DNA of 64,000 nucleotides from an uncultured Acidobacteriota bacterium (GCA_963821285.1 CAWGDD010000009.1:2431-66430); one strand, 5' to 3'; shown: positions 24,207 through 57,324, counted from the first letter of the stretch. Notes: generated by a model from the sequence alone, not told the origin. Made by a program: numbers and translations.

Positions 24207-24210
24207 CGTT

Positions 24211-29523: not shown

Positions 29524-29524
29524 A

Positions 29525-35299: not shown

Positions 35300-35368
35300 G
35301 GCTTCCAAGGTGCTCTGGCGGCCACGGTTCCCAACGTGCTGCCAGCACTGTGCATGTTCTTCGCACCC

Positions 35369-35436
35369 GAGCACGTTGCGGTGTTCCTGACGCCGTGAGC
35401 ACCTTGCGGGGCTCTTGATGGCCGAGCACTCTGCGC
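35369..35436. repeat. Three direct copies of a 13-mer GAGCAC(G/C/T)(T/C)TGCG(G/C) spaced 27-28 nt
   Basis: Copies at 35369-35381, 35397-35409 and 35424-35436, upstream of the glycosyltransferase-like gene. Confidence 0.7.
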
Positions 35437-35441
35437 GTTCT

Positions 35442-36548: not shown

Positions 36549-38229
36549 GCATGCGCTCGAGCACGACTTCGCCCGTGTCAGAGATCACGCCGGGCAGCAC
36601 CGTCGCGAGAGCGCCGACCGCTTCGGCGTGGAAGGCCGTACCCGCGAAGTGCCAGAGCTCCTGCAGCGCGGCCGTCGGGTGCCGGGCGCCACGGTACGCG
36701 CGGGCCGTCGTCATGGCGTCGTAGGCGTCGGCCACGTGCACGATGTGCGCGGCGATGGGGATCTCGTCCCCGCGCAGTCCGTGGGGGTAGCCGCGTCCAT
36801 CCGGCCGCTCGTGGTGCAGCTCGACAATCGGGATATGGGGCGCGAGGAACGGGACGGACTGCAGGATCCGCGCGCCCGCGCCGGGATGCTGCTTGATGAT
36901 GTCGAACTCGGCGGGCGTCAGCGCCGTGGGCTTGAGCAGCACCGCGTCGGGCACGCCGATCTTGCCGATGTCGTGCAGCAGCGCGCCCAGCCGGATCACT
37001 TCGATTTCCTCGTCGCGCAGGCGAAGCGATCGGCCGATGGCGACCGACAGCACGCTGACGCGCTCGGAGTGTCCTGCCGTGTACGGATCGCGCGCGTCGA
37101 GCGCCATCGCGAGCGCGCGAATCGCCCCCGTGTAGGCGCCCTGCGTCTGATCCTCGGCGGCCGTGACCGACGTGATGAGGGCGTTGAACGTGTCGGTCAG
37201 CTCGTCGATCTCGAGGCTCGACCCGCTCGGCGCCGGCAGGCCGGCCACGTCCCGTGACGCGGCCATGCGCTTCAACGACGTCGAAAGCTGTCCGATCGGC
37301 TCGGTGATCATCCGCGCCAGCCAGAAACTCGCCGCGAGGGCCAGCAGCGTCGCGCCGCCGGCGATGAGCGACAGACGCTGCACGGCCGTCCGCGTCGCGG
37401 CGCGGGAGGAGTCGTCGATCGACGTCAGGGCGTAAAAGCTGGCGCCGTTCACGTCGACCAGGCGGCGGAACGCGTGCGAGTCGCCGTCGAGCGCGATGAT
37501 GCCCCCGGCCGGGGGTGCTGACGCCCATGCGGACTCAAAGGCGCGTGCCGACGCGGGCGAGAGCGTGCTGGCCACGACTCGACCGCCGCTGACGATCGCG
37601 GTGCGCGCACCGGCCAGCGCCGAGAGATCATCGGCGTACCGGCGATCCAGGCCGGTCGCGAGGTAGAGCGCGCCGATTCTCACGCCGTCCAGATCGAACG
37701 GGACCGAGACGACCCGGAACACCGTGCCGTCCACGCGCGCGACGCCGTCCACACGATCGCCCTCGGCGCCGCCGGCGATGCGGACTTCGCGGTCGCGCGG
37801 CCAGAGGGCTGCCAGCCGGCCTGCGGCCGCGAGCGTCCGATGGCGGGTGTCGGTCAGCACGATCGCGTCGGAGTCGATCCGCGCCGCCACTTCCTCGAGC
37901 TGCCGGCCGATCGTCGTCAGCCATTGCTCGCGAACCGCCGGATCGGCGTTCGTCCGGGACTCGGCCGCGTATGTGTCCACGGCGGCCTTGAGCCGCGGGC
38001 TCTCGGCGAGCGCAGCCACCTGCTCGCTGAGCTCGCGCTGTCGCCGGGCCTCGATCGCCGCAAATACCCGCTGGCCGGCCTCGAGGTTGGTCGACACAGA
38101 CTGCCGGACCTGATCGCGGACGCTGGCAGTCACGAGCACGAAGACGCCGACGAGCAGCAGCGCCACCGTCGCGAAGGTGACCGCGAGCGTTTTGACGAGC
38201 AGGCGCGGCGGCCGCCGCCGATCCGTCAC
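36541..38229 (-). CDS. Membrane-anchored sensor with HAMP and HD-GYP (c-di-GMP phosphodiesterase-type) domains
   Basis: HSERV...LLHDIGKIGVPDAVLLKP..LT..E...IK.HP...HHERPDGRGYPHGL. The GTG start overlaps the upstream stop (GTGA). Confidence 0.85.
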   Translation of the reverse strand: MTDRRRPPRLLVKTLAVTFATVALLLVGVFVLVTASVRDQVRQSVSTNLEAGQRVFAAIEARRQRELSEQVAALAESPRLKAAVDTYAAESRTNADPAVREQWLTTIGRQLEEVAARIDSDAIVLTDTRHRTLAAAGRLAALWPRDREVRIAGGAEGDRVDGVARVDGTVFRVVSVPFDLDGVRIGALYLATGLDRRYADDLSALAGARTAIVSGGRVVASTLSPASARAFESAWASAPPAGGIIALDGDSHAFRRLVDVNGASFYALTSIDDSSRAATRTAVQRLSLIAGGATLLALAASFWLARMITEPIGQLSTSLKRMAASRDVAGLPAPSGSSLEIDELTDTFNALITSVTAAEDQTQGAYTGAIRALAMALDARDPYTAGHSERVSVLSVAIGRSLRLRDEEIEVIRLGALLHDIGKIGVPDAVLLKPTALTPAEFDIIKQHPGAGARILQSVPFLAPHIPIVELHHERPDGRGYPHGLRGDEIPIAAHIVHVADAYDAMTTARAYRGARHPTAALQELWHFAGTAFHAEAVGALATVLPGVISDTGEVVLERMHA

Positions 38230-38924
38230 GGCTGGTCCTCGACGGGCACGGTCAGGTTGACCGTGGTGGTCTGGCCCGCGTCGACGCGCACGGTCAGCGT
38301 CCGTTCGCCGACGCGCTCGTGCCACCCGACGAGCGTGTACCGGCCGGCAGGGATGTTGGGCAGCTCGAACGCACCATCGGCCGAGGGAATCGTGAAATAC
38401 GGATGATCGAGGACGAGGATTGAGGCGCTCATGTGCGAGTGGATATCGCAGAACACCTTCACCAGGCCCGGCTTGTTGAAGCGCTGACCGCGCGTCTCGC
38501 CGCGCGGGTACCGGCCCAGGTTGAACGTCGCCGTCGAAGACAGGGAGAACACGTTGTGGAAGAACGGATCACCGTTGGGAAACTCGACCGTCGATCCCCG
38601 CGTGATCGCCAGCACGTGCGGGATGAACGTCTCGTCTTCCTGCCGGAGCTCCGACTTCGTCGTGCGCAGCACGCCGCGGAATCCCACATCCTTCAGGTAG
38701 ACGACGACGTTGCGGATTTCCGGAATGGCGGGGGCCGTGTGCTTGCCGATCGTTCTCGAGGGATAGACGTTGGAGGGCAGCGGCGAGCGGATACGGGCGG
38801 TCAGCCTGACGCGGCCGCTGATCGTACCCGTGCCGGACTGTGCTGTTTGCGCGCGCGGTCCCGCGGTCGCGGCGGCGAGACACATGAGTGCAACGACGTG
38901 CAGCAGCACGACCTGAGAGCGCAC
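38226..38924 (-). CDS. Secreted cupredoxin-like protein with C-terminal CarboxypepD_reg-like segment
   Basis: Signal peptide. GSTVEFPNGDPFFHNVFS and KVFCDIHSHM give an H...C-x2-H-x2-M pattern suggestive of a type-1 Cu site. Also FELPNIPAGRYTLVGWHE. Confidence 0.55.
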   Translation of the reverse strand: MRSQVVLLHVVALMCLAAATAGPRAQTAQSGTGTISGRVRLTARIRSPLPSNVYPSRTIGKHTAPAIPEIRNVVVYLKDVGFRGVLRTTKSELRQEDETFIPHVLAITRGSTVEFPNGDPFFHNVFSLSSTATFNLGRYPRGETRGQRFNKPGLVKVFCDIHSHMSASILVLDHPYFTIPSADGAFELPNIPAGRYTLVGWHERVGERTLTVRVDAGQTTTVNLTVPVEDQP

Positions 38925-38928
38925 CTCG

Positions 38929-41304
38929 TCATTTTACGTCCGCGCCTGTCGCGGCCGGCAGCGCCACGCGTAAAACTTCTGCGAGGGTGTGCACGGGAAT
39001 GAAGCGCATCCCGCGCCTGAGTTCGGGCGGCAGCTCGGCGAGGTCCGGCTCGTTGCGGGCCGGAAGGATGAACTCCTTGATGCCGTGCCGCATGGCCGCG
39101 AGCGCCTTCTCGCGAATCCCGCCGACGGGCAGCACGAGGCCGCTCAGCGTAATCTCGCCCGTCATCGCCACGTCGTCGCGCACCTTCTGCTTCTTCAGCG
39201 CCGACACAATCGCCGTCGCCATCGTTACGCCGGCTGACGGCCCGTCTTTCGGGATCGCGCCGGCCGGCACGTGGACGTGCAGATCGTGGTTGTCGAGGAA
39301 GTCCGCCGGCACGCCGATCTCGGCGGCTTGCGATCGGATGTGGCTGACGGCGGCGCGCGCCGACTCCTGCATCACGGCGCCCAGCTGGCCGGTGAGGATC
39401 ACGTCGTGGTGTCCGGACGGGAGCAGGGTGGCCTCGATGAACAGCACGTCGCCGCCCGTCTCCGTCCAGGCGACGCCGGTGGCCACGCCCGGGCGTGACA
39501 CGCGGAACGCCACCTCGTCGTGGAAGCGCGGCGGGCCCAGGTAGTCGGGGATCGCGTCGGCGCGGACGATCGTCGGCTGCGCGTTCTCCGTCGACGCCGT
39601 GCGCGCGGCGATCTTCCTGGCCACGGCCCCGATGTGGCGCTCGAGGCTGCGAACCCCGGCCTCGCGCGTGTAGTCCAGGATGATGCGCTGGATCGCGGCG
39701 TCCTCGAACGTCACGGACGCAGCCGTCAGGGCATGCTCGTCGAGCTGCCGCGGCACGAGATACCGCGTCGCGATGTGGAGCTTTTCATCCGCCGTGTAGC
39801 CGGCGAGCGAGATGATCTCCATGCGATCGAGGAGCGCCGGGTGTACCGGGCCGAGCTGGTTGGCCGTCGCGATGAACAGCACGCGCGACAGGTCCATGTT
39901 GATTTCGAGGTAATGATCGCGGAACGAGTGGTTCTGCGCCGGGTCGAGCACCTCGAGCAGCGCGGCCGCAGGATCGCCCTGGAACCCGACGCTGAGCTTG
40001 TCGATCTCGTCCAGCATGAACACGGGGTTCATCGCGCCGGCCTGTTTCAGCGCCTGGACGATGCGGCCGGGAATGGAACCGATGTACGTGCGCCGGTGTC
40101 CGCGGATTTCCGCCTCGTCTCTCACGCCGCCGAGCGAGATGCGCACGAACTTCCGGTTCATCGCCCGCGCGATGGACTGGCCGAGCGACGTCTTGCCCAC
40201 GCCCGGCGGCCCGACGAAACACAGGATCGGCCCCTTGATCGAGCCCGCCGACGCGAGGTCCTTCGACTGCCGCGACTTCAGCTTCTGAACGGCCAGGTAC
40301 TCGACGATGCGTTCCTTGACCTTGTCGAGATCGTAGTGATCGTCGTCCAGCACCTGCCGGGCGGCCACCGGATCCAGGCGATCCGCCGTCACCGTGGACC
40401 AGGGCACGTCCAGCACCCAGTCGAGGTACGTGCGGATCATCTGGTGATCGGGCGAAGCCGACGGCGTGCGCTCCAGCCGTTCGACTTCGCGCGCGGCGAC
40501 CGCGGCGACCGCGTCGGGAAGGTGGGCGTCGCGGATCCGCTTGTGGACATCCTCGAAGTCGGTTTTCTCGCCTTCGCCGAGCTCGTCCTGGATGGTCTTG
40601 AGCTGCTGCCGCAGGTAGTACTGACGCTGCGCGTCCGTCATCTCCTCCTGCGTCTCGCTTTCGATCTTGCTCTTGAGCTCGAGCAACGATATCTCCCGGC
40701 TGAGCGCTGTGGTCACCGCCTGCAGCTTCGCGACGAGTTGGTCCGTCTCGAGAATGTTCTGCTTTTCCTCCGCTTTCATGTCGAGCAGGTTGGACAGCAG
40801 GTAGGAGAGGCGCAGCGGCTCGTCGATCCCGCTGACCATCCCGCGAAGGTCCTGCGACAGCCCCGCCGCGATCGACAGGCCGCGCTCGACCAGTTCCTGC
40901 AGCCGGCGGACGTAGGCGTCCACTTCGAGCGTTCGTTCGACGGGCTCGGGGATCGGGTTGACCGTCGCGCGCAGCGAGGCGCCGCTCTTCGTGACGATCT
41001 CCGCCCTGGCCCGCATCAGACCTTCGACGATGATGTGCAGGCCGCCGTTGGGGGCACGGGCCATCTGCCGCACGGCCGCGATCGTCCCGATCCGGCGGAC
41101 GTCGTCCGGTTCTGGGTCCTCGGCCGAGTCGCTGTTCTGAAGCGCCAGAAACAGCAGCCGATCGGTGGCCAGCGCGCGGTTCACCGATTCCATGGAAGCC
41201 GGCCGGTTCACGGCCAGGGGCTGCAGCGTCAAGGGAAAGACGACGATCTGCCTCAGTGCGACGACGGGGAGCTCGCTCGGGTAGGCGCGGACCGATTCGG
41301 CCAT
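38929..41304 (-). CDS. lon: ATP-dependent Lon protease (endopeptidase La)
   Basis: Walker A GPPGVGKTSLG, catalytic PKDGPSAGVTMATA and GG.REK. ATG at 41304 preferred over TTG at 41322. Confidence 0.95.
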   Translation of the reverse strand: MAESVRAYPSELPVVALRQIVVFPLTLQPLAVNRPASMESVNRALATDRLLFLALQNSDSAEDPEPDDVRRIGTIAAVRQMARAPNGGLHIIVEGLMRARAEIVTKSGASLRATVNPIPEPVERTLEVDAYVRRLQELVERGLSIAAGLSQDLRGMVSGIDEPLRLSYLLSNLLDMKAEEKQNILETDQLVAKLQAVTTALSREISLLELKSKIESETQEEMTDAQRQYYLRQQLKTIQDELGEGEKTDFEDVHKRIRDAHLPDAVAAVAAREVERLERTPSASPDHQMIRTYLDWVLDVPWSTVTADRLDPVAARQVLDDDHYDLDKVKERIVEYLAVQKLKSRQSKDLASAGSIKGPILCFVGPPGVGKTSLGQSIARAMNRKFVRISLGGVRDEAEIRGHRRTYIGSIPGRIVQALKQAGAMNPVFMLDEIDKLSVGFQGDPAAALLEVLDPAQNHSFRDHYLEINMDLSRVLFIATANQLGPVHPALLDRMEIISLAGYTADEKLHIATRYLVPRQLDEHALTAASVTFEDAAIQRIILDYTREAGVRSLERHIGAVARKIAARTASTENAQPTIVRADAIPDYLGPPRFHDEVAFRVSRPGVATGVAWTETGGDVLFIEATLLPSGHHDVILTGQLGAVMQESARAAVSHIRSQAAEIGVPADFLDNHDLHVHVPAGAIPKDGPSAGVTMATAIVSALKKQKVRDDVAMTGEITLSGLVLPVGGIREKALAAMRHGIKEFILPARNEPDLAELPPELRRGMRFIPVHTLAEVLRVALPAATGADVK

Positions 41305-41323
41305 CCAATCGAGTTTACTCAAT

Positions 41324-41467
41324 TAGTCAGCAGTCAGCAGTCGGCAGTCGGCAGTCGGCAGTCGGCAGTCGGCAGTCGGCAGTCGGCAGTCGGCAGTCGG
41401 CAGTCGGCAGTCGGCAGTCAGCAGTCGGCAGTGGCAGTCGGCAGTCAGCAGTCGCAGTCAGCAGTCG
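41324..41467 (+). repeat. Heptamer tandem array, about 20 x GCAGTCG (a few 6-nt variants)
   Basis: Read directly. This is the longest array in the window. It starts about 20 nt upstream of the lon ATG. Confidence 0.95.
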
Positions 41468-41535
41468 CGATCGCGCCAGCCCAGCCCGCCAGTCCCCAGC
41501 CCCTGAACCTCCGCCCTCTGTCCCCGTAACCCCTT

Positions 41536-42220
41536 TCAATACACGTAAGGCACGATCCGCCAGCGTACGAGTTGGCGGTATCGGCGGTACGGCTCCCCGA
41601 AGCTCTGCGATGAGGGATCGTTCCTCGAACGGCATCGCGATCAGCAGGTAGAACAGCGAGATTCCCGCGAACATCAGGCGATCGCCGGTCATGTGGGCCG
41701 GGCCGAAGGTGGCGAGCAGCCAGCCGAGGTAGAGCGGATGGCGCACCCAGCGGTACGGGCCGCGAAATTGCAGCGCATCGGCAGCGGGATGGGGACGAAT
41801 GCCGGCCAGGTCCAGCGCATCGATCGCCCGGACGGCGCTCGCGATGATCAGCACGCCTGCGACCTGGACCGCGGCCAGCGCCATCGCCGGCCAGCCACGG
41901 GCGTCGGTAGATCTCGCCGCCGACAGGCTGCCACGCCGCGCAGACGGCGACGAGCAGGAGGCTCGCGAGCCCAGACGTAGACCGACCGCAGCAGACGTTC
42001 CGGAACCACGCGTGCCAGCCAGCGCTTCGCGGGGTCGCGCGCAAACACGCTGTGGTGAGCGGCGAAGGCCGTAAAGAGGGCCGCGTCCATCCAGATCGCC
42101 GGAGGCGTCAAACGGCGCGGGCCGGTTCCACACGGCAACAAACGTGTAGCCGCAGTAGAGCAGGGCGCCGACGAACACCGCGCCGCCCGTCCACAGAATC
42201 GCGCGCTCCAACGTCTTCAT
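41536..42220 (-). pseudogene. ICMT/NnrU-type membrane methyltransferase, reading frame broken about 4 times
   Basis: Plausible protein segments lie in three frames. They read MKTLERAILWTGGAVFVGALLYCGYTFVAVWN, then AIWMDAALFTAFAAHHSVFARDPAKRWL, then LASLLLVAVCAAWQPVGGEIY, then WPAMALAAVQVAG...RWVRHPLYLGW...PFEERSLIAE, then FGEPYRRYRQLVRWRIVPYVY-stop. Confidence 0.6.
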
Positions 42221-42223
42221 CTC

Positions 42224-42279
42224 AGAACCTTGAACCTTGAACCCTGAACCCTGAACCCGGAACCTTGAACCCGGAACCT
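42224..42279 (+). repeat. Heptamer tandem array, 8 x TGAACCY/GGAACCT
   Basis: Read directly. It fills the divergent gap between the start at 42220 (minus) and the ATG at 42298 (plus). Confidence 0.95.
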
Positions 42280-42297
42280 TGTATTGTAGAACCTGCC

Positions 42298-43575
42298 ATG
42301 CATCACTCGGACCAGCCACGCGTCGTGATCACCGGCATCGGCGTCGTCTCGCCGTTTGGCGTGGGGCGCGAGCGCTTCTGGGATCACGTGCGCCGCGGCT
42401 GCAGCGGCACCCGCACGATCACCGAGTTCGACGCGTCGACGTTCGGGTGCCAGGTCGCGGCGCCTGCGAGCGGCGTCACGATCGACGATGTGCCGGCGTT
42501 CGAGGGAGAGGACGTCTGGGACCCGGACTACCGGGCGGACCCCAAGCGGTATTCGCGGGCGGCGCTCATCGGCGTCATCGCCGCGCGCGAAGCCTGGAGC
42601 GACGCCGGCCTGCGCATCGGCGAACCGGGCGCGGGCGTCATCGTCGGCAGCGGCGGCGGGGGTATCGATGTCGGCGAGCGGCAGTACGCAGACTTCTTCG
42701 GCGCGCGTGAACGGAAGGTGACGCCGTATGCGATCCCCGTGTCGATCGTCGGCATGGTGTCGAGCGAGATTTCGATCTCGCTGCGTCTCCGCGGCGTGAG
42801 CCACGTGCTGTCGTGCGGATGCACCAGCTCGACGGACGCCATCGGATACGCGGCGGCGCAGATCCGCGCCGGCGAGGCCGACGTCCTGTTGTCGGGCGGC
42901 ACCGACGCGTGCGTGACGCCGGGGATGATCTTCGGCTTCTCGCGGATGAAGGTCGTGTCCACGGCGTACAACGACGCGCCCGGCAGCGCCTCGCGGCCGT
43001 TCGATCGCGGGCGGGACGGGTTCGTGCTGGGCGAGGGCGCGTGGATGGTGGTGCTCGAGCGCGAGGACCGCGCGCGGGCGCGGGGCGCGCGTGTCTACGC
43101 GTCGATCGACGGCTACGGATCGACGTGCGACGCGTACCACCGCGTCCAGATGGCGCCGGACGGACGCGAGATCGTGCGGGCGATCGGCCTGGCGCTCGAG
43201 CGGTCGGGGCGTTCGCGCGACGAGATCGGCTACGTGAGCTATCACGGGACATCGACGGTGCTCAACGACGCCGTCGAGGCGCGGTGCGTGCGCGAGGTGT
43301 TCGGCGGCCATGCCGAGCGGCTCGCGGGCTCCTCGGTAAAATCGATGATCGGGCACCCGCAGGGTGCGAGCGGATCGGCCGGCGTCGTGACGGCGGCCCT
43401 CGCGCTGGCGCGGGGCTATTTCCCGCCCACGATCAACCAGCACCACCCCGATCCCGCCTGCGATCTCGACTTCGTCCCGAACACCGGCCGCGAGGCGCAC
43501 GCCGAGGCCGCGCTGTGCAACTGCCTCGGCTTCGGATCGAAAAACAGCGCGCTCGTCATCGGAGCCGCGCGGTGA
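42298..43575 (+). CDS. Beta-ketoacyl-ACP synthase family protein (FabF/KAS II-type condensing enzyme)
   Basis: VVITGIGVVSPFG, active-site Cys in SCGCTSS, His in SYHGTST and IGHPQGASG, C-terminus GFGSKNSALVIG. Confidence 0.9.
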   Translation: MHHSDQPRVVITGIGVVSPFGVGRERFWDHVRRGCSGTRTITEFDASTFGCQVAAPASGVTIDDVPAFEGEDVWDPDYRADPKRYSRAALIGVIAAREAWSDAGLRIGEPGAGVIVGSGGGGIDVGERQYADFFGARERKVTPYAIPVSIVGMVSSEISISLRLRGVSHVLSCGCTSSTDAIGYAAAQIRAGEADVLLSGGTDACVTPGMIFGFSRMKVVSTAYNDAPGSASRPFDRGRDGFVLGEGAWMVVLEREDRARARGARVYASIDGYGSTCDAYHRVQMAPDGREIVRAIGLALERSGRSRDEIGYVSYHGTSTVLNDAVEARCVREVFGGHAERLAGSSVKSMIGHPQGASGSAGVVTAALALARGYFPPTINQHHPDPACDLDFVPNTGREAHAEAALCNCLGFGSKNSALVIGAAR

Positions 43576-43583
43576 ACGGCGAA

Positions 43584-43690
43584 TTTAGTCATCTGGTCAT
43601 CTCGTCATCTGGTCTTCGTTTTGAAATTGCCCAGATTTCAAAATTGATCAGCAATGACCAGATGACCAGAATGACCGAGATGACCAGATG
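43584..43690. repeat. Composite palindromic element, copy A: 8-mer array (GTCATCTG x3), AT-rich palindromic core (TTTTGAAATT...AGATTTCAAAATT), inverted 8-mer array (CAGATGAC-type x4)
   Basis: Homologous to 63879-63984. The right end contains the ATG (43688) of the downstream gene. Confidence 0.9.
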
Positions 43691-44833
43691 CTTGATTGCC
43701 TGATCGTCGGCGCGGGCCCGGCGGGTGCGGTCGCCGCCACCGTGCTGGCGCGTGCGGGTGCCCGTGTGCGCATCGTGGATCGCAGCACGTTCCCGCGCGA
43801 CAAGCTGTGCGGGGACACGGTCAATCCGGGCACGCTCGGGCTGCTGCGGCGGCTGAAGATGGCGGCCGCGATCGACGCGTGCGGGCTGCCGGTCGCGGGC
43901 ATGCGCGTCACGGGCGAACGCGGCGTCGTGATCGAGGGACGCTACCGGGACGGCGTCGCCGGCCGAGCGCTGCTGCGGCGTCACCTGGACTGGATGCTGC
44001 TGCAGGACGCGCTCGCGGCCGGCGCGCAGTTCGAGCCCGCGTTCACGGTCCGAGGCGCGATCGTGGACGGATCCCGCGTCGCGGGCGCCCGGGTGAGCGG
44101 GCGCCAATTCGACGGCGAGATTCGCGCGCGTGTGACGATCGCGGCCGACGGCCGCCGGTCGACGCTGACGTTCGGGCTGGGGATGGCGCGGCATCCCGCG
44201 CGGCCGCGTCGCTGGGCCATGGGCGCGTACGTCGAGAACACCGCTGTGACCGGGCCGCCTCGCGACCTGGGCGAGATGCACGTGCGCGCGGGACGCTACA
44301 TCGGCGTCGCGCCCGTGCCCGGTGGCCTGACGAATGTCTGCGTCGTGAGGCCGTGGATGCCCGGCGACCGGACGATTGGCGATCCGAAGGCGGCGGTGCT
44401 CGGTGAACTGGCGCGCGACCCGTTGTTGCGCGACCGGTTTGCCGGCGCGCGGCTGGTCGGCACGCCCGCCGTGCTGGGCCCGCTGGCGGTCGACGTCAAC
44501 GACTCCGCACACCTCGAGGGGCTGCTGCTGGCCGGCGACGCTGCGGGGTTCATCGACCCCATGACCGGCGACGGCCTCCGGTTCGCCGTGCGCGGCGCCG
44601 AACTCGCCGCCCTTGCGGCGCTCGACGCGCTCGAACACGGCTGGCACGGCGTGCACGAGCGGCTGGCGATCAGCCGCAGGGCCGAGTTTGCGGGGAAGTG
44701 GCGATTCAACCGCCTGCTGCGGTCGCTCGTCACCTCGCCGGCTGCCGTCGGCGGGGCATCGTGGGGCGCGCGCCTCGCGCCTGCGGGTCTGCGCGCGGCG
44801 ATCGAATACGCCGGAGATGTCGGGTACGCCTGA
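43688..44833 (+). CDS. NAD(P)/FAD-dependent oxidoreductase (geranylgeranyl-reductase-like flavoprotein)
   Basis: DCLIVGAGPAGAVAA..LA..G..V.I.D, KLCGD, and LAGDAAGFIDPMTGDG. Confidence 0.85.
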   Translation: MLDCLIVGAGPAGAVAATVLARAGARVRIVDRSTFPRDKLCGDTVNPGTLGLLRRLKMAAAIDACGLPVAGMRVTGERGVVIEGRYRDGVAGRALLRRHLDWMLLQDALAAGAQFEPAFTVRGAIVDGSRVAGARVSGRQFDGEIRARVTIAADGRRSTLTFGLGMARHPARPRRWAMGAYVENTAVTGPPRDLGEMHVRAGRYIGVAPVPGGLTNVCVVRPWMPGDRTIGDPKAAVLGELARDPLLRDRFAGARLVGTPAVLGPLAVDVNDSAHLEGLLLAGDAAGFIDPMTGDGLRFAVRGAELAALAALDALEHGWHGVHERLAISRRAEFAGKWRFNRLLRSLVTSPAAVGGASWGARLAPAGLRAAIEYAGDVGYA

Positions 44834-45378
44834 AACGGTCGCGCTGCTCGCGATCGTGTTCGTGCCGATGCTCGTCGAGGCCCGGCGCGCGGATCGCAAC
44901 GAACGCGTGCAGTGGGCGCGCGGCGGCATCGAGCCTTCGGGCGATGTCTACCGCCGTGATGCGCATCGCCTACCCGGCCGTGTTTCTCGCGATGATCGTC
45001 GAGGGTGGCGCCGTGCGCCGGCGCAGGCGTTCGCACAGCTCGATTCGGAGCTCGCCGGATGTTCGTCGCGGACTCGGAGCTGGCGATCGCGGGGTTCTTG
45101 CGCTGTTCTGCGGCGACAAGGCGCTCAAGTGGTGGGCCATCGTGTCGCTCGGCCCGGCGTGGACGTTTCGCGTGATCGTCGTGCCGGGTGATGCGCCCGT
45201 CGCCGGCGGCCCGTACACCTGGCTGCGTCATCCGAACTACGTGGGGGTGGTGGGCGAGCTGGTGGGCGTCGCGCTGATGTCGGGCGCGCGCGTGAGCGGG
45301 CCGATCGGCACGCTGGCGTTTTGCGCGCTGATGCTCAGGCGCATCGCCGTCGAGAATCGCGCGCTCCATCGGGTCTAG
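44817..45378 (+). pseudogene. Isoprenylcysteine carboxyl methyltransferase (ICMT)-family protein, at least one frameshift near 44946-44950
   Basis: MSGTPETVALLAIVFVPMLVEARRADRNERVQWARGGIEPSGDVY is in frame 3. It continues as AVMRIAYPAVFLAMIVEG...KALKWWAIVSLGPAWTFRVIVVPG...GPYTWLRHPNYVGVVGEL in frame 1. The segment 45000-45100 may hold further shifts. Confidence 0.6.
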
Positions 45379-45409
45379 CGTGCGCTGAGTGTACAATTCG
45401 CGGCGGCAG

Positions 45410-46872
45410 ATGCCTTCGCCGACCGCCCGCACACCTCTGCCTTCCTCCGAGCCGCGGCGCTGGGTTCGCGCAATCGACGCGCTCTGCCTCGCGCTGGTGG
45501 TGCTGAGCGCCCTCGTCGCGATGTCGGGCGGTTTCCGCGTGCGCCTCGGCCCGCTGCGCGTGGCCGTCACGTCGCCGTACTCGACGCTGCTGTGGGCGTT
45601 CGTCGATCGCGATCGTCCGGCACGTCCTGGCACCGGCGGCGCCGATCTACCGCGACCTGCCGGCGCGGCTGGCCGCGTGGTGGCATCAGCCCGGCGTGCA
45701 CACCGCCGCGATCGTGACGGCGGGGACGCGCCCGGCGATCCTGTTTGTCGGCTACATGGCCGTGCTCGTGTTCGGCTACCCGCCGGGGCCGGCGCCGCCG
45801 GTGCAGATCAACAACGAGCTGGTGAACCTGCAGGCGCGGTGGGACGCCAACTGGTATCTCGGCATCGTGACCGAGGGCTACCACTTCGTGCCGGAACCAG
45901 CCGGGCCTTCAGCAGAGCATCGCCTTCTTCCCGGCCTACCCGCTGCTCGTGCGCGGCGTCGGCCGCATTCTGGGCGGACGGCTGACGAGCTACATCGGCG
46001 CGGGTATGCTCGTCTCGTTCGCGGCGTTTTTCGGGGCGCTCATCTACCTCTACGCGCTGGCGCGCGACACGCTCGAAGAAGACCAGGCGCGCTTCGCGGT
46101 CTGGGCGATGGCGACGTACCCGTTCGCGCTGTTCTTCGGCGCGATCTACGTCGAACCGCTGCTGCTGCTCGGGATGACCGCGACGTTCTACCACTTCACG
46201 CACGGACGGTTCGCGCGCGCCGCGGCCTGGGGTGTGCTGGTTGGTCTGACGAAGACGAACGGGTTTCTGCTCTCGATCCCGCTCGCGATGCTCGCGATCC
46301 AGGTCGGACGCGCGGGGCAGGCCGGGCAGGTCGGGCAGGTCGGGCAGGCCGGGCAGGGCGGGCAGGGCAAGAACGTCGTCACGGCGCTGGCCGCGGCGGC
46401 GATGCCTGGCCTGGGCATGCTCATCTACTCCGCTTACGTCTGGCAGCTGACCGGGGATCCGCTGGGGTGGCTCAGGGCGCACGGCGCGTGGGGCCGGGAG
46501 TATCAGGGGCTCGTGACGCTCGTGGGCGACCGGCTGAACATCATCGCGAACGCCGGCATCGAGGGCTACGTCGCGTCGCTTCCGTACGACCTCATCAACG
46601 CGCTCGGTGCGATCTTCGTGCTGGCCGCGGTCTGGCCGGTGGCCCGCAAGCTCGGTCTGGCCTACGCGGTGTTCATCCTCGTCTTCATGCTGCCGCCGCT
46701 GGCGGCCGGCGGCCTCATCTCGGCCGGGCGCTTCTCGTCCGTGTTGTTCCCCGCGTTCCTCTGGCTGGCCGGTCTGGTGCCGCCGAAACATCGCCCGGCA
46801 TGGCTCGCTTCATTCGCGGCCTTTCAGGCGCTGAACGCGGCCATGTTCTACACCTGGCGCCCGCTGTACTAG
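45410..46872 (+). pseudogene. PIG-V-like/GT-C-type membrane mannosyltransferase, two frameshifts (about 45600-45606 and 45895-45905)
   Basis: Segments MPSPTART...YSTLLWAF (frame 2), IAIVRHVLAPAAPIYRDLP...WDANWYLGIVTEGYHFVPEP (frame 3), and QQSIAFFPAYPLLVRG...to the end (frame 1). Confidence 0.6.
46312..46365 (+). repeat. 9-mer tandem array, 6 x G(G/C/T)CGGGCAG, in frame inside the glycosyltransferase gene
   Basis: Encodes AGQAGQVGQVGQAGQGGQ between two predicted TM segments. Confidence 0.9.
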
Positions 46873-46876
46873 CAGT

Positions 46877-46918
46877 GCAGGCCTTCAGGCCTGCGTGCAG
46901 GCGGGCCTAAAGGCCCGC
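46877..46918. repeat. Two REP-like GC hairpins (GCAGGCC-TTCA-GGCCTGC; GCGGGCC-TAAA-GGCCCGC)
   Basis: Read directly, 5 nt after the stop at 46872. Confidence 0.85.
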
Positions 46919-46948
46919 ACTACTTCAGGTTGTCCATCGCAGCGCGGA

Positions 46949-46954
46949 TATAAT
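46949..46954 (+). promoter_or_regulatory. Perfect TATAAT hexamer 10 nt upstream of the ATG at 46965 (candidate -10 of the MoxR-type operon)
   Basis: TATAAT read directly. No convincing -35 (TTCAGG at 19 nt or TTGTCC at 13 nt). Confidence 0.3.
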
Positions 46955-46964
46955 ACGAGGCGAG

Positions 46965-49511
46965 ATGCCTCGCACCTTCTCGCGCAGGTTCTATCTGCTG
47001 GCGCTGCTGCTGGCGGTCGGCGTGCCGCTGGGCGCCGTGCTGGTGGTGGCGCAGGGACAGCGCCGGGCGCAGGCGCCCGCCACGCCGGCGACGCCGTTCC
47101 AGGCCGCGACTCGTGCCTACATCGAGGGACGGTACGCCGAGGTCGACACGCTCACCGACAAGCTCGATCTGAAGGATCCGAACGTCGTCGCGCTGCGCGG
47201 CCGGGCGGCCATCGCGCGCGGGCTGTACGCCGACGCGGAGTCCGCGTTACAGGCGGCCGCGTCCCGCGCGCCTTCCAGCGAGGCCGCGCTCGAGCTCGGT
47301 CTGCTGCAGCAGATGCTGAGCCGTCCGGCGGCGCGCACGACGCTCTCGCGCGTGGCCGCGCTGGCGGAGACGTCGCAGAACGCGCGTGAACTCGCGCGCG
47401 CGGGCCGTGCCCTGCATGCCCTCGACCTCATTCCGGACGCCAAGACGGCCTTCATCGAGGCGACGCGCCTGGCTCCAAACGATGCCGCGATCGAAGCGGC
47501 CTTCGGCGATCTGTTCCTCGCGAAGTACAACAACGCCGAAGCCGTCAAGTCGTACCAGCGGGTCCTGGAACTCGATCCTCGCTGGGCCCCCGCGCTCATC
47601 GGCGCCGCGCAGGCGCTCGAAAACGACAACCCGCCGCAGGCGGCGGCGCTCGTCAAGCGCGCGATGGAAATCAATCCCAACTCGGTGGACGCGCACGTGT
47701 TTCTCGCGAACCAGGCGATCGACTCCGAGAAGCGCGCCGAGGCGCGCGAGCTGCTGACCAAGGCGCTGGCCATCAACCCGTCCAGCCTCGACGCCCGCGG
47801 CACCCTGGCCGCGCTGGCGTACGTCGAGGACAAACCCCAGGAGTTCGAGGCCGAGGTGGCGAAGGTCCTGGCCATCTCGCCCGGTCACGGCGAGGTGTAC
47901 CGCGTGGCCGGCGAGATGGTCGCGCACAACTACCGGTTCGAAGAAGCCGTGGTGCTGACGCGCAAGGCCCTGGCGCTGACGCCCAACGATCCGCGCGCCC
48001 TGGCCGACCTCGGCGCCCAGCTCCTCCGCACGGGCGACGAGCCCGAAGCACGTTCGGCGCTCGAAGCCTCGTTCAAGATCGATCCGTACGACGTCGTTAC
48101 CTTCAACGCCCTGCGCCTGCTCGACTCGCTCGACAAGTTCGAGACGATCACCGACGGCGATCTCGTCGTCAAGCTGAGCAAGGAAGAAGCGCCGGTCCTC
48201 AAGGAATACACGGTCGCGCTCGCGCATCAGGCGCTCAGCACGATGGCGGCGAAGTACGAATTCACCCCGAAGGGCCCCATCCTCATCGAGATGTTCCCGA
48301 AGCACGACGACTTCGCCGTCAGGACGCTCGGCCTGCCCGGCATGATCGGCGCGCTGGGCGCGTGTTTCGGCCGCGTCGTCACGCTCGACTCGCCGAAGGC
48401 GCGTCCGCCGGGTGAGTTTCAGTGGGAAGCCACGCTCTGGCACGAGCTCGGCCACGTCATTACGCTGCAGATGTCGAACCAGCGCGTGCCGCGGTGGCTG
48501 ACCGAAGGCATCTCCGAATACGAGGAGCGCCGCGCCCATCGCGAATGGGCCCGCCAGATGGACTTCACGTTCGCGTCGCTGCTGAATCGCGACGGAACGA
48601 TCAAGCTCAAGGACCTGAACGCCGCGTTCCAGGATCCGAAGCTCATCGGGATTGCGTACTACGAGGCGTCGCTCGTGGTCGATCACCTGGTGGGCACGTT
48701 CGGACAGAGCGGCCTGAACAGGCTGGTGCGCGCGTACGCCCGCGGCCTCGACACGGAAACGGCGCTCAAGGAGGTGCTGAACACCGACTTCGACAAGCTG
48801 CAGATCGGCTTCGATCAGTACACCGAGCGGACGTTCGGCGCGCTGCAGAAGGCGCTGGTCGTGCCGAAGGACGTCCAGCTCGCGAAGGCCCCGATCGACG
48901 AACTCCGCAAGCTCGCGAACGAGAATCCCCGGAGCTATCCGGTCCAGCTCGCCTACGGACATGCGCTCCGGAAGGCCGGCGGCACCGACGAGGCCATGCA
49001 GGTGTTCGAGCGGGCGGCGGCGCTCGCCCCGAGCGCCACCGGGGATGACAGCCCGCGCGCGCAGATGGCCGAGATCGCGCTCGAGAAGAAGGATCGCGCG
49101 CGCGCGATCTCCGAACTGACGGCGTTCCTGAACGCCGACTTCGAGAACGTCGGCGCCGCGCACAAGCTGGCGTCGCTCCTGAAGGAGGCCGGCGTCACGG
49201 ATCCGGCCCGTCTCCGCCCCGTCTACGAGCGCATCGTCGCGCTCGATCCGTTCGACGGCGACGCCAGGGCGGCGCTCGGGCGGATGGCGATGCAGCGGAA
49301 CGACGTCGACTACGCCGCGCGCGAATTCCGGACCGTGATCGCGCTCAAGCCAATCGATCCGGCCGTCGCGCACACAGACCTGGCCGAGAGCTACCTCAAG
49401 GCGGGCAAGCGCGACGAAGCGAAGCGCCAGACGTTGGCGGCGCTGGAGATCGCGCCCACGTACGAGCGCGCGCAGGACCTTCTGCTGAAGCTGGCGGAGG
49501 CGCGGCCGTGA
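46965..49511 (+). CDS. TPR-repeat protein with embedded HExxH...E metallopeptidase (MA-clan-like) module
   Basis: Signal or anchor N-terminus, multiple TPR-like A..A...A.......P repeats, and WHELGHVITLQ...WLTEGISEYEE. Confidence 0.75.
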   Translation: MPRTFSRRFYLLALLLAVGVPLGAVLVVAQGQRRAQAPATPATPFQAATRAYIEGRYAEVDTLTDKLDLKDPNVVALRGRAAIARGLYADAESALQAAASRAPSSEAALELGLLQQMLSRPAARTTLSRVAALAETSQNARELARAGRALHALDLIPDAKTAFIEATRLAPNDAAIEAAFGDLFLAKYNNAEAVKSYQRVLELDPRWAPALIGAAQALENDNPPQAAALVKRAMEINPNSVDAHVFLANQAIDSEKRAEARELLTKALAINPSSLDARGTLAALAYVEDKPQEFEAEVAKVLAISPGHGEVYRVAGEMVAHNYRFEEAVVLTRKALALTPNDPRALADLGAQLLRTGDEPEARSALEASFKIDPYDVVTFNALRLLDSLDKFETITDGDLVVKLSKEEAPVLKEYTVALAHQALSTMAAKYEFTPKGPILIEMFPKHDDFAVRTLGLPGMIGALGACFGRVVTLDSPKARPPGEFQWEATLWHELGHVITLQMSNQRVPRWLTEGISEYEERRAHREWARQMDFTFASLLNRDGTIKLKDLNAAFQDPKLIGIAYYEASLVVDHLVGTFGQSGLNRLVRAYARGLDTETALKEVLNTDFDKLQIGFDQYTERTFGALQKALVVPKDVQLAKAPIDELRKLANENPRSYPVQLAYGHALRKAGGTDEAMQVFERAAALAPSATGDDSPRAQMAEIALEKKDRARAISELTAFLNADFENVGAAHKLASLLKEAGVTDPARLRPVYERIVALDPFDGDARAALGRMAMQRNDVDYAAREFRTVIALKPIDPAVAHTDLAESYLKAGKRDEAKRQTLAALEIAPTYERAQDLLLKLAEARP

Positions 49512-50308
49512 ACCGGGCGGCCGTGGCCGCCGCCGCGGCGCTGCTCCTCAGCCTGCCCACCGCCGGCTCTGGGCTCGACGGCGCCACCGATGGTCATGAA
49601 AACGTCAACGTGGCCGCCCGCTCCGCCGGGCTGCAGTGGCGCTTCGTTCGCATCAAGTACCACTACGACCCCGCCGCGCTGCGCGCGATGCAACTCGATG
49701 TCTACGGCGAGCCCTGGGGCATCGACTCGCCGGCAGCGGAGCAGAACCTCTCGCGGCGCGTGAAGACCGCGACCTCGATCGCCGTCGAAGATCCCATTCT
49801 GATGACGCTCGACGATCCCCAGCTGTTTGAGCACCCCTGGATCTACATCGTCGAACCGGGAGCGCTCCGCCTGACCGACAGCGAGGCGGCGAACCTGCGC
49901 GAGTTCCTGCTGCGCGGCGGGACGGCGATGCTGGATGACTTTCACGGACCGTACGAGTGGGAGAGCCTCGAACGCCAGCTGCGCAAGGTGTTTCCGGATC
50001 GCCGGATCACCGAGATCACGCCCGACCACCCCGTCTTCAGGTGCTTCTACGCGCTCGAGGCTTACCCGCAGGTCGCGGGCATCGGCTCGTTCCTGGCCGG
50101 GCGCACGTGGGAGAAGGGCGGGCTCGTCCCGCACCTGCGCACCATCCTGGACGATGCCGGGCGGCCGATGCTGTTCATCAACTGGAACACCGACATGGGC
50201 GACGGCTGGGAGTGGTCCAACGTCGAGGAATACCCGGGCTACCTGAAATACACCTCGATGGCCTATCGCATGGCGATCAACGAGATCGTCTACTCCCTGA
50301 CGCACTGA
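49508..50308 (+). CDS. DUF4159-like protein
   Basis: WRFVRIKY.....WGIDSPAAEQNL...V...T....EDP..M.LDDP.LFEHPWIY..E.G...L...EA..LREFLLRGG....DDFHG. The GTG overlaps the upstream stop (GTGA). Confidence 0.7.
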   Translation: MNRAAVAAAAALLLSLPTAGSGLDGATDGHENVNVAARSAGLQWRFVRIKYHYDPAALRAMQLDVYGEPWGIDSPAAEQNLSRRVKTATSIAVEDPILMTLDDPQLFEHPWIYIVEPGALRLTDSEAANLREFLLRGGTAMLDDFHGPYEWESLERQLRKVFPDRRITEITPDHPVFRCFYALEAYPQVAGIGSFLAGRTWEKGGLVPHLRTILDDAGRPMLFINWNTDMGDGWEWSNVEEYPGYLKYTSMAYRMAINEIVYSLTH

Positions 50309-50327
50309 TACGGGTTCCACACCAGAC

Positions 50328-51320
50328 ATGAGTGTTGCTGCTACAGCGGAGAAGGTCGCGGAAGGCCGCGCGCAGATCCTCGCCGAACTGAGAAAGGTCA
50401 TCATCGGCCAGGACGAGGTGGTCGAGGAGGTCCTCATCGCGCTGTTCACGGGCGGACACTGCCTGATCACCGGCGTGCCGGGCCTGGCCAAGACGCTGCT
50501 CATCAAGACGCTGGCCGGCATCCTGGACCTCGACTTCAAGCGCATTCAGTTCACGCCCGATCTGATGCCGTCGGACATCACCGGCACCGAAATTCTTGAC
50601 GAAGACCAGGGTGCACGCCGGCTTCATTTCGTGAAGGGCCCGATCTTCGCGCAGATTATCCTGGCCGACGAGATCAACCGCACGCCGCCGAAGACGCAGG
50701 CGGCGCTGCTCGAGGCCATGCAGGAGGCCCACGTGACGGCCGCGGGGCGGACGTATCCGCTCGAACAGCCGTTCTTCGTCCTCGCCACGCAGAACCCGAT
50801 CGAGCTCGAGGGCACGTATCCGCTGCCGGAAGCGCAGCTCGACCGCTTCATGTTCAACATCGTCATCACGTACCTCAGCCAGGATGATGAGGTGCGGGTG
50901 GTGACGCAGACGACCGGCGGCGCGCAGCCGCTGCCGGCGCGCGTGCTGACCGGGTCCGACATCCTGCAGTTCCAGGAGATCGTGCGTCAGGTGGCGATCG
51001 CCGACGAGATCGCGCGTTATGTCGTCCGGCTCGTCGACGCCTCGCGCCCCGGCCGGCCCGGTGCGCCCGAATTCATCGAGCAGTGGGTGAAGTGGGGCGC
51101 CGGACTCCGCGCGTCGCAGGCGCTCGTGCGCGGCGCCAAGGCGCGCGCGCTGATGCACGGCCGCTATCACGTCTCGGTCAAGGACATCCAGGCGCTTGCG
51201 AAGCCGATCCTGCGTCACCGGATCATGACGAACTTCTACGCCGACTCCGAGCGCATCACCCCCGATGCCATCGTCGATCGGCTGCTGGACGCCGTGCCGG
51301 TGCCGAAGAGCGGGATGTAG
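50328..51320 (+). CDS. MoxR-family AAA+ ATPase
   Basis: LITGVPGLAKTLL, IQFTPDLMPSDITG, ILADEINRTPPKTQAALLEAMQE, VLATQNPIE.EGTYPLPEAQLDRF. Confidence 0.95.
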   Translation: MSVAATAEKVAEGRAQILAELRKVIIGQDEVVEEVLIALFTGGHCLITGVPGLAKTLLIKTLAGILDLDFKRIQFTPDLMPSDITGTEILDEDQGARRLHFVKGPIFAQIILADEINRTPPKTQAALLEAMQEAHVTAAGRTYPLEQPFFVLATQNPIELEGTYPLPEAQLDRFMFNIVITYLSQDDEVRVVTQTTGGAQPLPARVLTGSDILQFQEIVRQVAIADEIARYVVRLVDASRPGRPGAPEFIEQWVKWGAGLRASQALVRGAKARALMHGRYHVSVKDIQALAKPILRHRIMTNFYADSERITPDAIVDRLLDAVPVPKSGM

Positions 51321-51321
51321 G

Positions 51322-52221: not shown

Positions 52222-52280
52222 ACCACGAAGATCACGAAGCCCACAAAGCTATCCTTGGTGGTCTTTGTGTGCTTTGTGGT
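52222..52280. repeat. Inverted pair of 9-mer arrays (ACCACGAAG ATCACGAAG CCCACAAAG / CTTGGTGGT CTTTGTGTG CTTTGTGGT)
   Basis: Read directly. Imperfect hairpin with G-U pairs. It fills the DUF58 to BatA-like junction. Confidence 0.9.
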
Positions 52281-52288
52281 TCTGAATT

Positions 52289-54178: not shown

Positions 54179-54179
54179 A

Positions 54180-54214: not shown

Positions 54215-54215
54215 C

Positions 54216-57302: not shown

Positions 57303-57324
57303 CCGCGCTGCGGTTGGCCTCTCC

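What the first reader, a model, noticed from the sequence alone, without database searches (positions are those of the whole stretch)
41536..46872. Condensing-enzyme / flavoprotein / ICMT-methyltransferase cluster in which only the three polytopic membrane genes are frame-disrupted, always by +1
Gene order is ICMT/NnrU-like methyltransferase (minus strand), KAS II-type synthase, geranylgeranyl-reductase-like flavoprotein, ICMT-family methyltransferase, then PIG-V-like glycosyltransferase. A condensing enzyme with an ICMT-type methyltransferase and a flavoprotein recalls the alkylresorcinol/alkylpyrone type of cluster (for example SrsABC of Streptomyces griseus). Here, though, the condensing enzyme is FabF-like instead of a type III PKS.

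The synthase and flavoprotein are intact. The three membrane-protein genes need at least 7 frame changes to be read through: about 42095, 41965, 41915 and 41600; about 44948; about 45603 and 45900. Every junction I could place is a +1 shift, consistent with a single inserted base. No other gene in the 64-kb window shows this.

Possible explanations are recent pseudogenisation of the pathway's membrane steps, localised consensus errors, or selection against the intact genes during cloning.
Basis: partly seen in the sequence, partly recalled or inferred. Interest (0 to 1): 0.6.

Follow-up and report, generated by a model that had tools for sequence, protein, structure and literature searches.

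The report
Likely assembly-error frameshifts in gene cluster
Three genes of a soil acidobacterial gene cluster are broken by at least ten tiny frame changes; these match the typical consensus errors of long-read metagenome assemblies much better than real gene decay, so the finding is most likely an artefact.

Summary
The window comes from a Vicinamibacterales (Acidobacteriota) genome. Seven single extra bases break three genes: an MddA-like ICMT-family methyltransferase (minus strand), an ICMT methyltransferase and a PIG-V-like glycosyltransferase. The KAS II and flavoprotein genes between them, and the rest of the 64 kb, are intact.

"Always +1" is incomplete. A close short-read relative shows three more disruptions (-1 mod 3) hidden in a loop of the ICMT gene.

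The likeliest cause is local long-read consensus error (about 0.78).
- Independent short-read contigs of the same lineage (94-96% nt) lack the extra base at the 5 of 7 sites they cover, and their genes are intact.
- Long-read assemblies of relatives carry the same signature: single G/C insertions outside homopolymers (34:5 and 26:6 over deletions). Frameshifts occur in 15/25 Nanopore MAG loci but only 5/135 others.
- Repaired genes show no relaxed selection.

Real recent pseudogenisation (about 0.15) is not excluded. It would neatly explain why KAS and the flavoprotein are spared. Cloning toxicity and programmed frameshifting are not supported.

The Srs-type analogy is only a resemblance, because the condensing enzyme is FabF-type. 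Only raw reads can settle the cause. Interest is low.

The parts
41536..42220 (-). Gene A: an MddA-like, ICMT/NnrU-family membrane methyltransferase. It is broken by four single extra bases at about 42101, 41970, 41904 and 41607.
   Evidence: Alignment with 7 relatives. Pairwise gaps against L001 and L081. The repaired 226-aa protein matches NF045656 MddA at 133 bits (cutoff 270), plus PF04140, PF04191 and PF07298. The same-lineage contig L161 lacks the extra base at 42101 and 41970.
41325..41467 (.). Heptamer tandem array (AGTCGGC x 20.7) between Lon and gene A.
   Evidence: Tandem Repeats Finder. The Lon-A adjacency is also seen in L166. L001, L162 and L164 instead carry an ECF-sigma block at this place.
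42298..43575 (+). Gene B: a FabF-type beta-ketoacyl-ACP synthase II. It is intact.
   Evidence: PF00109 and PF02801 match full length. NF005589 scores 407 bits, above its cutoff of 387; TIGR03150 scores 416, below its cutoff of 493.75. No coding indel against L161 or L165. dN/dS is 0.08.
43588..43690 (+). B-C intergenic hairpin made of an inverted pair of 8-nt tandem arrays. The window has 3-4 extra nt here relative to L161 and L165.
   Evidence: Tandem repeat scan. RNA fold of -52.6 kcal/mol, z -7.3. Gap list.
43688..44833 (+). Gene C: a geranylgeranyl-reductase-family FAD flavoprotein. It is intact.
   Evidence: PF01494. TIGR02032 at 121 bits. No indel against L165. Substitutions on the window branch are S=9, N=2.
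44817..45378 (+). Gene D: an ICMT-family methyltransferase. It has one extra base at 44951-44954. It also has three hidden disruptions: 4 nt missing at 45005, 1 nt missing at 45057, and 2 nt extra at 45116.
   Evidence: The L165 orthologue is an intact 187-aa ORF whose loop reads EGAWRRVPPQAFAQLDSVFAVVFVAVSELAIAGFFLFLLAK. The window needs three frames to read the same peptide. PF04140 scores 72 bits.
45389..46872 (+). Gene E: a PIG-V-like GT-C glycosyltransferase. It has single extra bases at 45603 and 45893-45901. The last 970 nt are clean.
   Evidence: PF04188 scores 29 bits on the repaired protein. L165 and L166 both lack the two extra bases.
46965..49511 (+). TPR plus peptidase-MA protein downstream. 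It is intact and has no 1-nt indel against L001.

Best explanation
The frame disruptions are most likely errors of the consensus sequence. They sit in two short, poorly resolved patches (41607-42101 and 44954-45893) of what is probably a long-read (Nanopore-type) metagenome assembly. They are probably not mutations of the organism.

Shown here:
- Each junction is a 1-nt insertion, or a small indel in the D loop, relative to every relative.
- Short-read assemblies of the same lineage do not have these indels.
- Undoubted long-read assemblies of related Vicinamibacterales carry the same kind of indel in many unrelated genes.

Inferred:
- The window itself is a long-read assembly.
- The patches reflect locally poor read support. 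Possible causes are a coverage dip or a mixture of strains around a presence/absence polymorphism of the KAS-flavoprotein-ICMT segment.

In the living organism, genes A, D and E are then probably intact. The cluster would be an ordinary, conserved, uncharacterised Vicinamibacterales cassette: a divergent MddA-like methyltransferase, then a FabF-like synthase, a GGR-like flavoprotein and an ICMT methyltransferase.
For: 1. Same-lineage independent contigs lack the extra bases.
- L161 (JGI, 95.8% nt identity) lacks them at 42101 and 41970.
- L165 (Logan SRR22808081, 94.5% nt) lacks them at 44954, 45603 and 45893. It has intact C, D and E ORFs of 381, 187 and 488 aa.

2. Frameshifts track the assembly technology.
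- The same 7 genes were scanned in 160 related loci.
- Frameshifts occur in 15/25 Microflora Danica long-read MAG loci against 5/135 other loci (Fisher p = 8e-11).
- Those MAGs are Nanopore-only, built with Flye and one round of Medaka (PMC12313526).

3. The error spectrum matches.
- In those loci, 34 shifts are of the +1 type and 5 are -1.
- L166 is a Flye-style ENA contig, 91-92% identical to the window over 14 kb. It has 26 single-base insertions against 6 deletions, inside genes that are intact in the window (Lon, TPR, MoxR and others).
- Those insertions are mostly G or C, lie outside homopolymers, and often create a CpG, for example C[G]ATC. Window sites 1 and 6 have the same context.
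- Given that spectrum, P(7/7 are +1) is 0.23-0.38.

4. Selection is not relaxed.
- dN/dS of the repaired genes against L001 is A 0.25, D 0.31, E 0.21. The intact pair L001-L081 gives 0.22, 0.29, 0.13.
- On the window branch, polarised with L001, S,N is D 9,10 and E 14,15. On the intact L165 branch it is 12,9 and 31,24.
- Neutrality for the whole window branch is rejected (p = 0.0016).
- The repaired frames have no stop codons and GC3 stays at 0.85-0.97.

5. Several hits per gene (4 in A, 4 in D), all tiny, are not what selection for inactivation would give.
Against: - The source and sequencing technology of the window are unknown. Its own genome could not be found, and no reads are available.
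- The other 58 kb of the window are clean. The assembly as a whole is therefore good, and a special local cause has to be assumed.
- KAS and the flavoprotein lie between the two patches and carry no indel at all. If errors were uniform over that span, p is about 0.001. Selection on real mutations would explain this directly.
- Two of the seven +1 sites (41904, 41607) are not covered by any same-lineage short-read contig.
- The same-lineage contigs are 4-6% divergent. They show that the population's genes are intact, not that this genome's genes are.
Confidence: 0.78

Rival explanations
1. The pseudogenisation is real and recent. In this lineage, the two ICMT-family methyltransferases and the GT-C glycosyltransferase have been inactivated and are accumulating small indels. 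KAS and the flavoprotein remain under selection.
For: - Indels are confined to A, D, the first third of E, and the B-C intergenic spacer. B and C are completely spared (p about 0.001).
- The locus is structurally plastic in relatives. L166 lacks B-C-D altogether, and E is present in only 26 of about 160 loci.
- N/S on the window branch for D and E is slightly higher than on the L165 branch (1.09 against 0.77), though not significantly.
Against: - N/S is far from the neutral value (p = 0.0016).
- At most about 15% of the short window branch (dS about 0.03) could have been neutral. That predicts about 1 indel, not 10. This inference uses and the usual ratio of about 1 indel to 10 substitutions.
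- The spectrum is 7 single-base insertions outside homopolymers, with no larger deletions. This is atypical for bacterial mutation, which is deletion-biased and run-associated. It is identical to the error spectrum of long-read contigs of relatives.
- The repaired frames contain no stop codons.
- The orthologues are intact in all close relatives assembled from short reads.
Confidence: 0.15
2. The pattern is a cloning or propagation artefact. Intact polytopic membrane genes were toxic in a cloning host, and only mutated inserts survived.
For: All three affected genes encode polytopic membrane proteins.
Against: - One hit per gene would be enough for such selection, but A and D have four each.
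- Other polytopic membrane genes in the same window are intact: the 685-aa OPT transporter, the rhomboid, and the Bat-like proteins.
- The window is 64 kb of contiguous sequence from a lineage known only from MAGs, so it is not obviously a clone.
Confidence: 0.02
3. The shifts are programmed +1 ribosomal frameshifting or transcriptional slippage, and the genes are expressed despite them.
For: Seven shifts have the same sign.
Against: - The orthologues are single ORFs in about 140 related loci.
- The seven sites share no motif.
- There is no 0-frame stop at the sites. The old frame runs on for hundreds of nt.
- Three further shifts have the opposite sign.
Confidence: 0.01

Closest known systems
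Indel consensus errors in Nanopore-only metagenome-assembled genomes, which give apparent pseudogenes (for example the MFD-LR catalogue, PMC12313526; frameshift correction in PMC8103633)
   Same: - The events are single-base indels that split ORFs.
- They are absent from short-read assemblies of the same lineage.
- The insertion-biased, non-homopolymer, G/C-rich spectrum is the same as in L166 and in 15 MFD loci.
   Different: - Here the errors are confined to two patches of 0.5 and 1 kb in an otherwise clean 64 kb. The error-prone relatives show about 1 shift per 0.4-1 kb everywhere.
- The technology behind the window is not known.
Genuine bacterial pseudogenes formed by frameshift
   Same: Some genes have disrupted frames while their neighbours stay intact. 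Sister lineages carry intact copies.
   Different: There is no relaxation of selection, no stop codons, and no deletions larger than 4 nt. Each gene has many hits within a very short branch.
Methyltransferase, FAD-oxidoreductase and type III PKS operons: SrsABC of Streptomyces griseus (from my own knowledge), and hidABC and the planctomycetal operons (PMC10896814)
   Same: A condensing enzyme sits next to an FAD-dependent oxidoreductase and a membrane ICMT-type methyltransferase.
   Different: - The condensing enzyme is a FabF-type KAS II (PF00109/PF02801, with the Cys-His-His motifs), not a chalcone-synthase-like type III PKS.
- The flavoprotein is closest to the geranylgeranyl-reductase family, not to UbiH-type hydroxylases.
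- No product is known.
MddA methanethiol S-methyltransferase (NF045656)
   Same: It is the best family match for repaired gene A (E = 7.5e-39 over residues 41-218). It is a membrane ICMT-fold enzyme.
   Different: The score of 133 bits is well below the equivalog cutoff of 270, so gene A is a distant paralogue of unknown substrate.

Membership tests
Long-read consensus indel error | The indel is absent from independent assemblies of the same lineage. | tested here: met
   L161 lacks 2 of the +1 insertions and L165 lacks 3, so 5 of 7 sites are covered. L165 also shows the three D-loop disruptions. Sites 41904 and 41607 are not covered.
Long-read consensus indel error | The indel spectrum is the same as in known long-read assemblies of relatives, and such shifts are rare in short-read assemblies. 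| tested here: met
   Frameshifts occur in 15/25 MFD Nanopore loci against 5/135 others. The +1 to -1 ratio is 34:5 in those loci and 26:6 in L166.
Long-read consensus indel error | Raw reads do not support the consensus base, and the window comes from a long-read assembly. | not testable with these tools
   No reads are available and the source genome was not found.
Genuine pseudogene | Relaxed purifying selection (dN/dS moving towards 1) on the affected lineage. | tested here: not met
   dN/dS is 0.21-0.31, about the same as for intact pairs. Branch N/S is 1.09 against 0.77 on the intact branch. Neutrality is rejected at p = 0.0016.
Genuine pseudogene | Disruptions are confined to dispensable DNA, with selected neighbours spared. 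| tested here: met
   B and C have no indel. A, D, E and the B-C spacer do.
Programmed +1 frameshift (prfB type) | The shift site is conserved in orthologues, with a slippery motif and a 0-frame stop. | tested here: not met
   The orthologues are single ORFs. There is no shared motif and no adjacent stop.
Srs/Hid/Bps-type alkylresorcinol or alkylpyrone operon | The condensing enzyme is a type III PKS. | tested here: not met
   Gene B matches PF00109 and PF02801, and NF005589 FabF at 407 bits against a cutoff of 387.
Srs/Hid/Bps-type alkylresorcinol or alkylpyrone operon | An adjacent ICMT-type methyltransferase and an FAD-dependent oxidoreductase. | tested here: met
   D matches PF04140 at 72 bits and C matches PF01494 (E = 1e-23). 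This operon architecture is described in PMC10896814.
FabF / KAS II | Both ketoacyl-synthase domains, the Cys-His-His motifs, and the family score cutoffs. | tested here: met
   Both domains match full length. The motifs GCTSS, YHGTST and SMIGHPQG were read in the translation. The subfamily cutoff is met. The fabF equivalog cutoff (TIGR03150: 416 against 493.75) is not met, so this is a paralogue.
MddA methanethiol S-methyltransferase | NCBIfam equivalog cutoff of 270 bits. | tested here: not met
   133 bits.

The most novel reading that the evidence does not exclude
The indels are real. A soil Vicinamibacterales lineage would then be dismantling the membrane steps of a conserved but uncharacterised lipid cassette: the two ICMT-family methyltransferases and the GT-C transferase. 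The cassette is built on a FabF-type synthase instead of a type III PKS. KAS and the flavoprotein would be kept. The mutations would come from an unusual insertion-biased, non-homopolymer process. Separately, the intact cassette (MddA-like methyltransferase, KAS II, GGR-like flavoprotein, ICMT) is conserved in more than 100 Vicinamibacterales loci. It could make a methylated lipid by a route analogous to the alkylresorcinol and alkylpyrone operons.
Probability: 0.12. Interest if true: 0.4.

Novelty: not a real feature. Interest (0 to 1): 0.12.

Why it matters
- If the shifts are artefacts, as is most likely, this is a data-quality point. Gene calls for A, D and E in this record are wrong, and pathway or pseudogene inferences from it would be spurious.
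- The session also documents a recognisable error signature in long-read MAGs of high-GC soil bacteria: single G/C insertions outside homopolymers, often creating a CpG, and sometimes in local patches. This could be used to flag false pseudogenes.
- If the shifts are real, this would be a small case of selective pathway decay.
- The underlying cassette is conserved and uncharacterised, but nothing here shows what it makes.

Tried and rejected
- **Exact-sequence look-ups.** Four window proteins (two KAS start variants, MoxR, flavoprotein) found no source contig.
- **Collection scans.** Scans of genome and metagenome contigs with the KAS gave no same-strain sequence; the best hits were 95-96% aa. 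Same-lineage contigs came only from the protein-cluster route.
- **Homopolymer slippage.** Rejected as a cause. At most 3 of the 7 sites extend a 1-2 nt run, and the others are in mixed sequence.
- **Frameshift-aware protein-to-DNA alignment.** I wrote one and ran it with distant orthologues. It could not resolve the D loop: the results depended on the frameshift penalty. L165 resolved it.
- **Reference-protein frameshift correction (MEGAN-LR type, PMC8103633).** I considered this as the reason why only poorly conserved genes kept their errors. I set it aside for two reasons: the window has no N, and the C-terminal two thirds of gene E are clean.
- **Higher divergence of the affected genes.** This explains only part of the pattern. 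A and D are the most divergent genes, but the N-terminal part of E is as conserved as KAS.
- **Apparent ORF overlaps elsewhere in the window.** Those at 18551/19965, 36541/38933 and 54132/59553 are ordinary adjacent genes, not frameshifts.
Full report
**What the window is.** The window has about 67% GC and very strong GC3 periodicity. A scan of GTDB species representatives with the KAS protein returned 80 loci. Nearly all are labelled Vicinamibacterales or Acidobacteriota MAGs. The best is L001 (MFD02242.bin.2.39), at 96% aa and about 89% nt identity. The window's own genome was not found by exact protein look-up.

**Checking the observation.** The GC3 phase changes repeatedly between 41.5-42.2 kb and 44.8-45.9 kb, but stays constant through 42.3-43.6 kb (KAS) and 43.7-44.8 kb (flavoprotein).
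- In L001 the five genes are single ORFs. tblastn of its proteins hits the window in several frames.
- MAFFT DNA alignments with seven relatives show one extra base in the window at each junction. The positions are about 42101, 41970, 41904 and 41607 (gene A, minus strand), 44951-44954 (gene D), and 45603 and 45893-45901 (gene E).
- Removing one base per site gives uninterrupted proteins that align end to end with the orthologues.
- So the seven +1 junctions are real features of the sequence, at the stated places.

**The rest of the window.** An ORF and GC3 map of all 64 kb, followed by inspection of every gap and ORF overlap, found no other frame break.
- The intact genes include other polytopic membrane proteins: a 685-aa OPT transporter, a rhomboid, and Bat-like proteins.
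- The chance that seven events fall in one 5.3-kb stretch is about 3e-7.

The protein-cluster route led to L165, a Logan assembly of SRR22808081. It is 94.5% nt identical to the window over 42756-46870 and has intact C, D and E genes.
- Against L165, gene D of the window has three more disruptions besides the extra base at 44954. Four nt are missing at 45005, 1 nt is missing at 45057, and 2 nt are extra at 45116.
- Each equals -1 mod 3 and together they net -3, so the ORF stays open and hides them.
- L165 reads the loop as a hydrophobic segment, EGAWRRVPPQAFAQLDSVFAVVFVAVSELAIAGFFLFLLAK. The window encodes the same peptide only if three frames are used in turn.
- In 45057-45101 the window's GC3 signal jumps to another phase: 1.00 against 0.42 in the nominal frame.
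- There are therefore at least ten disruptions, seven of +1 and three of the other sign. They form two patches, 41607-42101 and 44954-45893. The last 970 nt of gene E are clean.

**Are they mutations or errors? Same-lineage contigs.**
- L161 (JGI, 95.8% nt) covers sites 42101 and 41970 and lacks the extra base at both.
- L165 lacks it at 44954, 45603 and 45893.
- More distant JGI contigs (L162, L164) also have all the genes intact.

**Frameshifts track the assembly technology.** I scanned Lon, A, B, C, D, E and the TPR gene in 160 related loci.
- Frameshifts occur in 15 of 25 Microflora Danica long-read MAG loci and in 5 of 135 others (Fisher p = 8e-11).
- Those MAGs are Nanopore-only, assembled with Flye and polished with one round of Medaka (PMC12313526).
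- There the shifts hit Lon, the flavoprotein and the TPR gene as well, so they are not specific to membrane genes.

**The spectrum matches.**
- In those loci, 34 shifts are of the +1 type and 5 are -1.
- L166 is a Flye-style ENA contig, 91-92% identical to the window over 14 kb. It has 26 single-base insertions against 6 deletions inside genes that are intact in the window.
- Its inserted bases are mostly G or C, lie outside homopolymers, and often create a CpG such as C[G]ATC. Two of the window's sites have exactly that form.
- Nanopore indels that create false pseudogenes in MAGs are well documented (PMC8103633).

**Selection.**
- dN/dS of the repaired genes against L001 is A 0.25, B 0.08, C 0.18, D 0.31, E 0.21. 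This is essentially the same as for the intact pair L001-L081: 0.22, 0.06, 0.15, 0.29, 0.13.
- I polarised substitutions with L001 as outgroup. The window branch has S,N of 9,10 (D) and 14,15 (E). The intact L165 branch has 12,9 and 31,24.
- Neutral evolution over the whole window branch is rejected (p = 0.0016).
- The window branch is short (dS about 0.03). Even a fully neutral 2.7 kb would gain about 90 substitutions and, at the usual ratio of about 1 indel to 10 substitutions, about 9 indels. With at most about 15% of the branch neutral, about one indel is expected, not ten. This is an inference.

**What remains unexplained.** KAS and the flavoprotein lie between the patches and have no indel against L161 or L165. 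The B-C spacer has 3-4 extra nt.
- If errors were uniform over the span, sparing B and C has p of about 0.001.
- Real pseudogenisation explains this by selection. The error model needs a local cause.
- One lead is that the locus is structurally polymorphic. L166 lacks the whole B-C-D segment, so gene A abuts gene E with breakpoints at window 42264 and 45338. L001, L162 and L164 carry an ECF-sigma block between Lon and A that the window lacks.
- All ten disruptions lie within 660 nt of the two L166 breakpoints. A mixture of such haplotypes in the sample could corrupt polishing near the junctions. This is speculation that only reads can test.

**The gene cluster.**
- A matches the MddA family, but far below its cutoff (133 against 270 bits).
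- B is a FabF-type KAS II with the Cys-His-His motifs. It passes the PRK07314 subfamily cutoff but not the fabF equivalog cutoff.
- C is closest to the geranylgeranyl-reductase family.
- D is ICMT (72 bits).
- E is PIG-V-like (29 bits).
E is found in only 26.
- The known operon of methyltransferase, FAD oxidoreductase and type III PKS (PMC10896814) resembles it. However, its defining enzyme, a type III PKS, is not present. The cluster can be said to look like such an operon, but it is not a member.

**Verdict.** The cause is most likely local consensus error (0.78). Real recent pseudogenisation keeps 0.15, and cloning selection and programmed frameshifting are negligible. Interest is low. The most useful by-product is the error signature seen in long-read MAGs of this clade.

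Noticed in passing
window 2777-2837, 5074-5112, 9805-9845, 16409-16490, 21171-21295, 24165-24211, 29452-29524, 41325-41467, 42225-42281, 43588-43690, 54176-54210, 61607-61694, 63885-63983: Almost every intergenic spacer carries a tandem array of a 7- or 8-nt unit. Several arrays occur as inverted pairs that fold into long hairpins: 43576-43695 folds at -52.6 kcal/mol with z -7.3. One unit family (GACTGCC, CTGCCGA, GTCGGCA, AGTCGGC) recurs at four places. Relatives have arrays at the same spacers but with different units. These could be terminator-like or REP-like elements. I know of no description of them.
   Followed up: partly
L166:7868-7929, corresponding to window 42264-45338: A related long-read contig (ENA ERZ25039488 contig_44045) lacks the whole KAS-flavoprotein-ICMT segment, so gene A directly abuts gene E. 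All ten frame disruptions of the window lie within 660 nt of these two breakpoints.
   Followed up: partly
between Lon and gene A: window 41323-41535; L001:2317-4680; L162:2825-5124; L164:1432-5105: L001, L162 and L164 carry an ECF sigma-70 gene plus 2-4 unannotated genes between Lon and gene A. The window and L166 have only a heptamer array there.
   Followed up: no
L166 against window 34323-41324 and 45338-52202; MFD loci L002, L010, L011, L015, L024, L040, L046, L050, L051, L053, L058, L065, L068, L072, L078: Long-read assemblies of this high-GC clade show a marked bias towards single-base insertions (26:6 and 34:5 over deletions). The inserted base is mostly G or C, outside homopolymers, and often creates a CpG. 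This differs from the homopolymer-deletion picture usually given for Nanopore.
   Followed up: partly
L004, L044, L056, L009: Records labelled Bifidobacteriaceae, Bifidobacterium sp., Bifidobacterium breve and Betaproteobacteria carry this Vicinamibacterales cluster, with 76-84% KAS identity. They are probably mis-binned or mislabelled contigs in public MAGs.
   Followed up: no
window 46300-46366 (inside gene E): A 9-nt tandem repeat (GGGCAGGCC x 5.8) encodes a GQAGQ-type low-complexity loop. Its length varies among relatives. L165 differs from the window by -5 and -1 nt here, so the frame of this loop differs between the two. The window agrees with L001.
   Followed up: partly
window 49508-59553: Downstream lies an intact Bat/MoxR-type operon: DUF4159, a MoxR AAA ATPase, DUF58, and three large membrane or vWA-like proteins. 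It is preceded by an 848-aa TPR plus peptidase-MA protein.
   Followed up: no
window 20037-20125 and 20217-20305: A G-rich 9-nt tandem array (CGGGCGGGT x 9.6) lies next to the only tRNA in the window, tRNA-Leu(CAA), on the minus strand.
   Followed up: no
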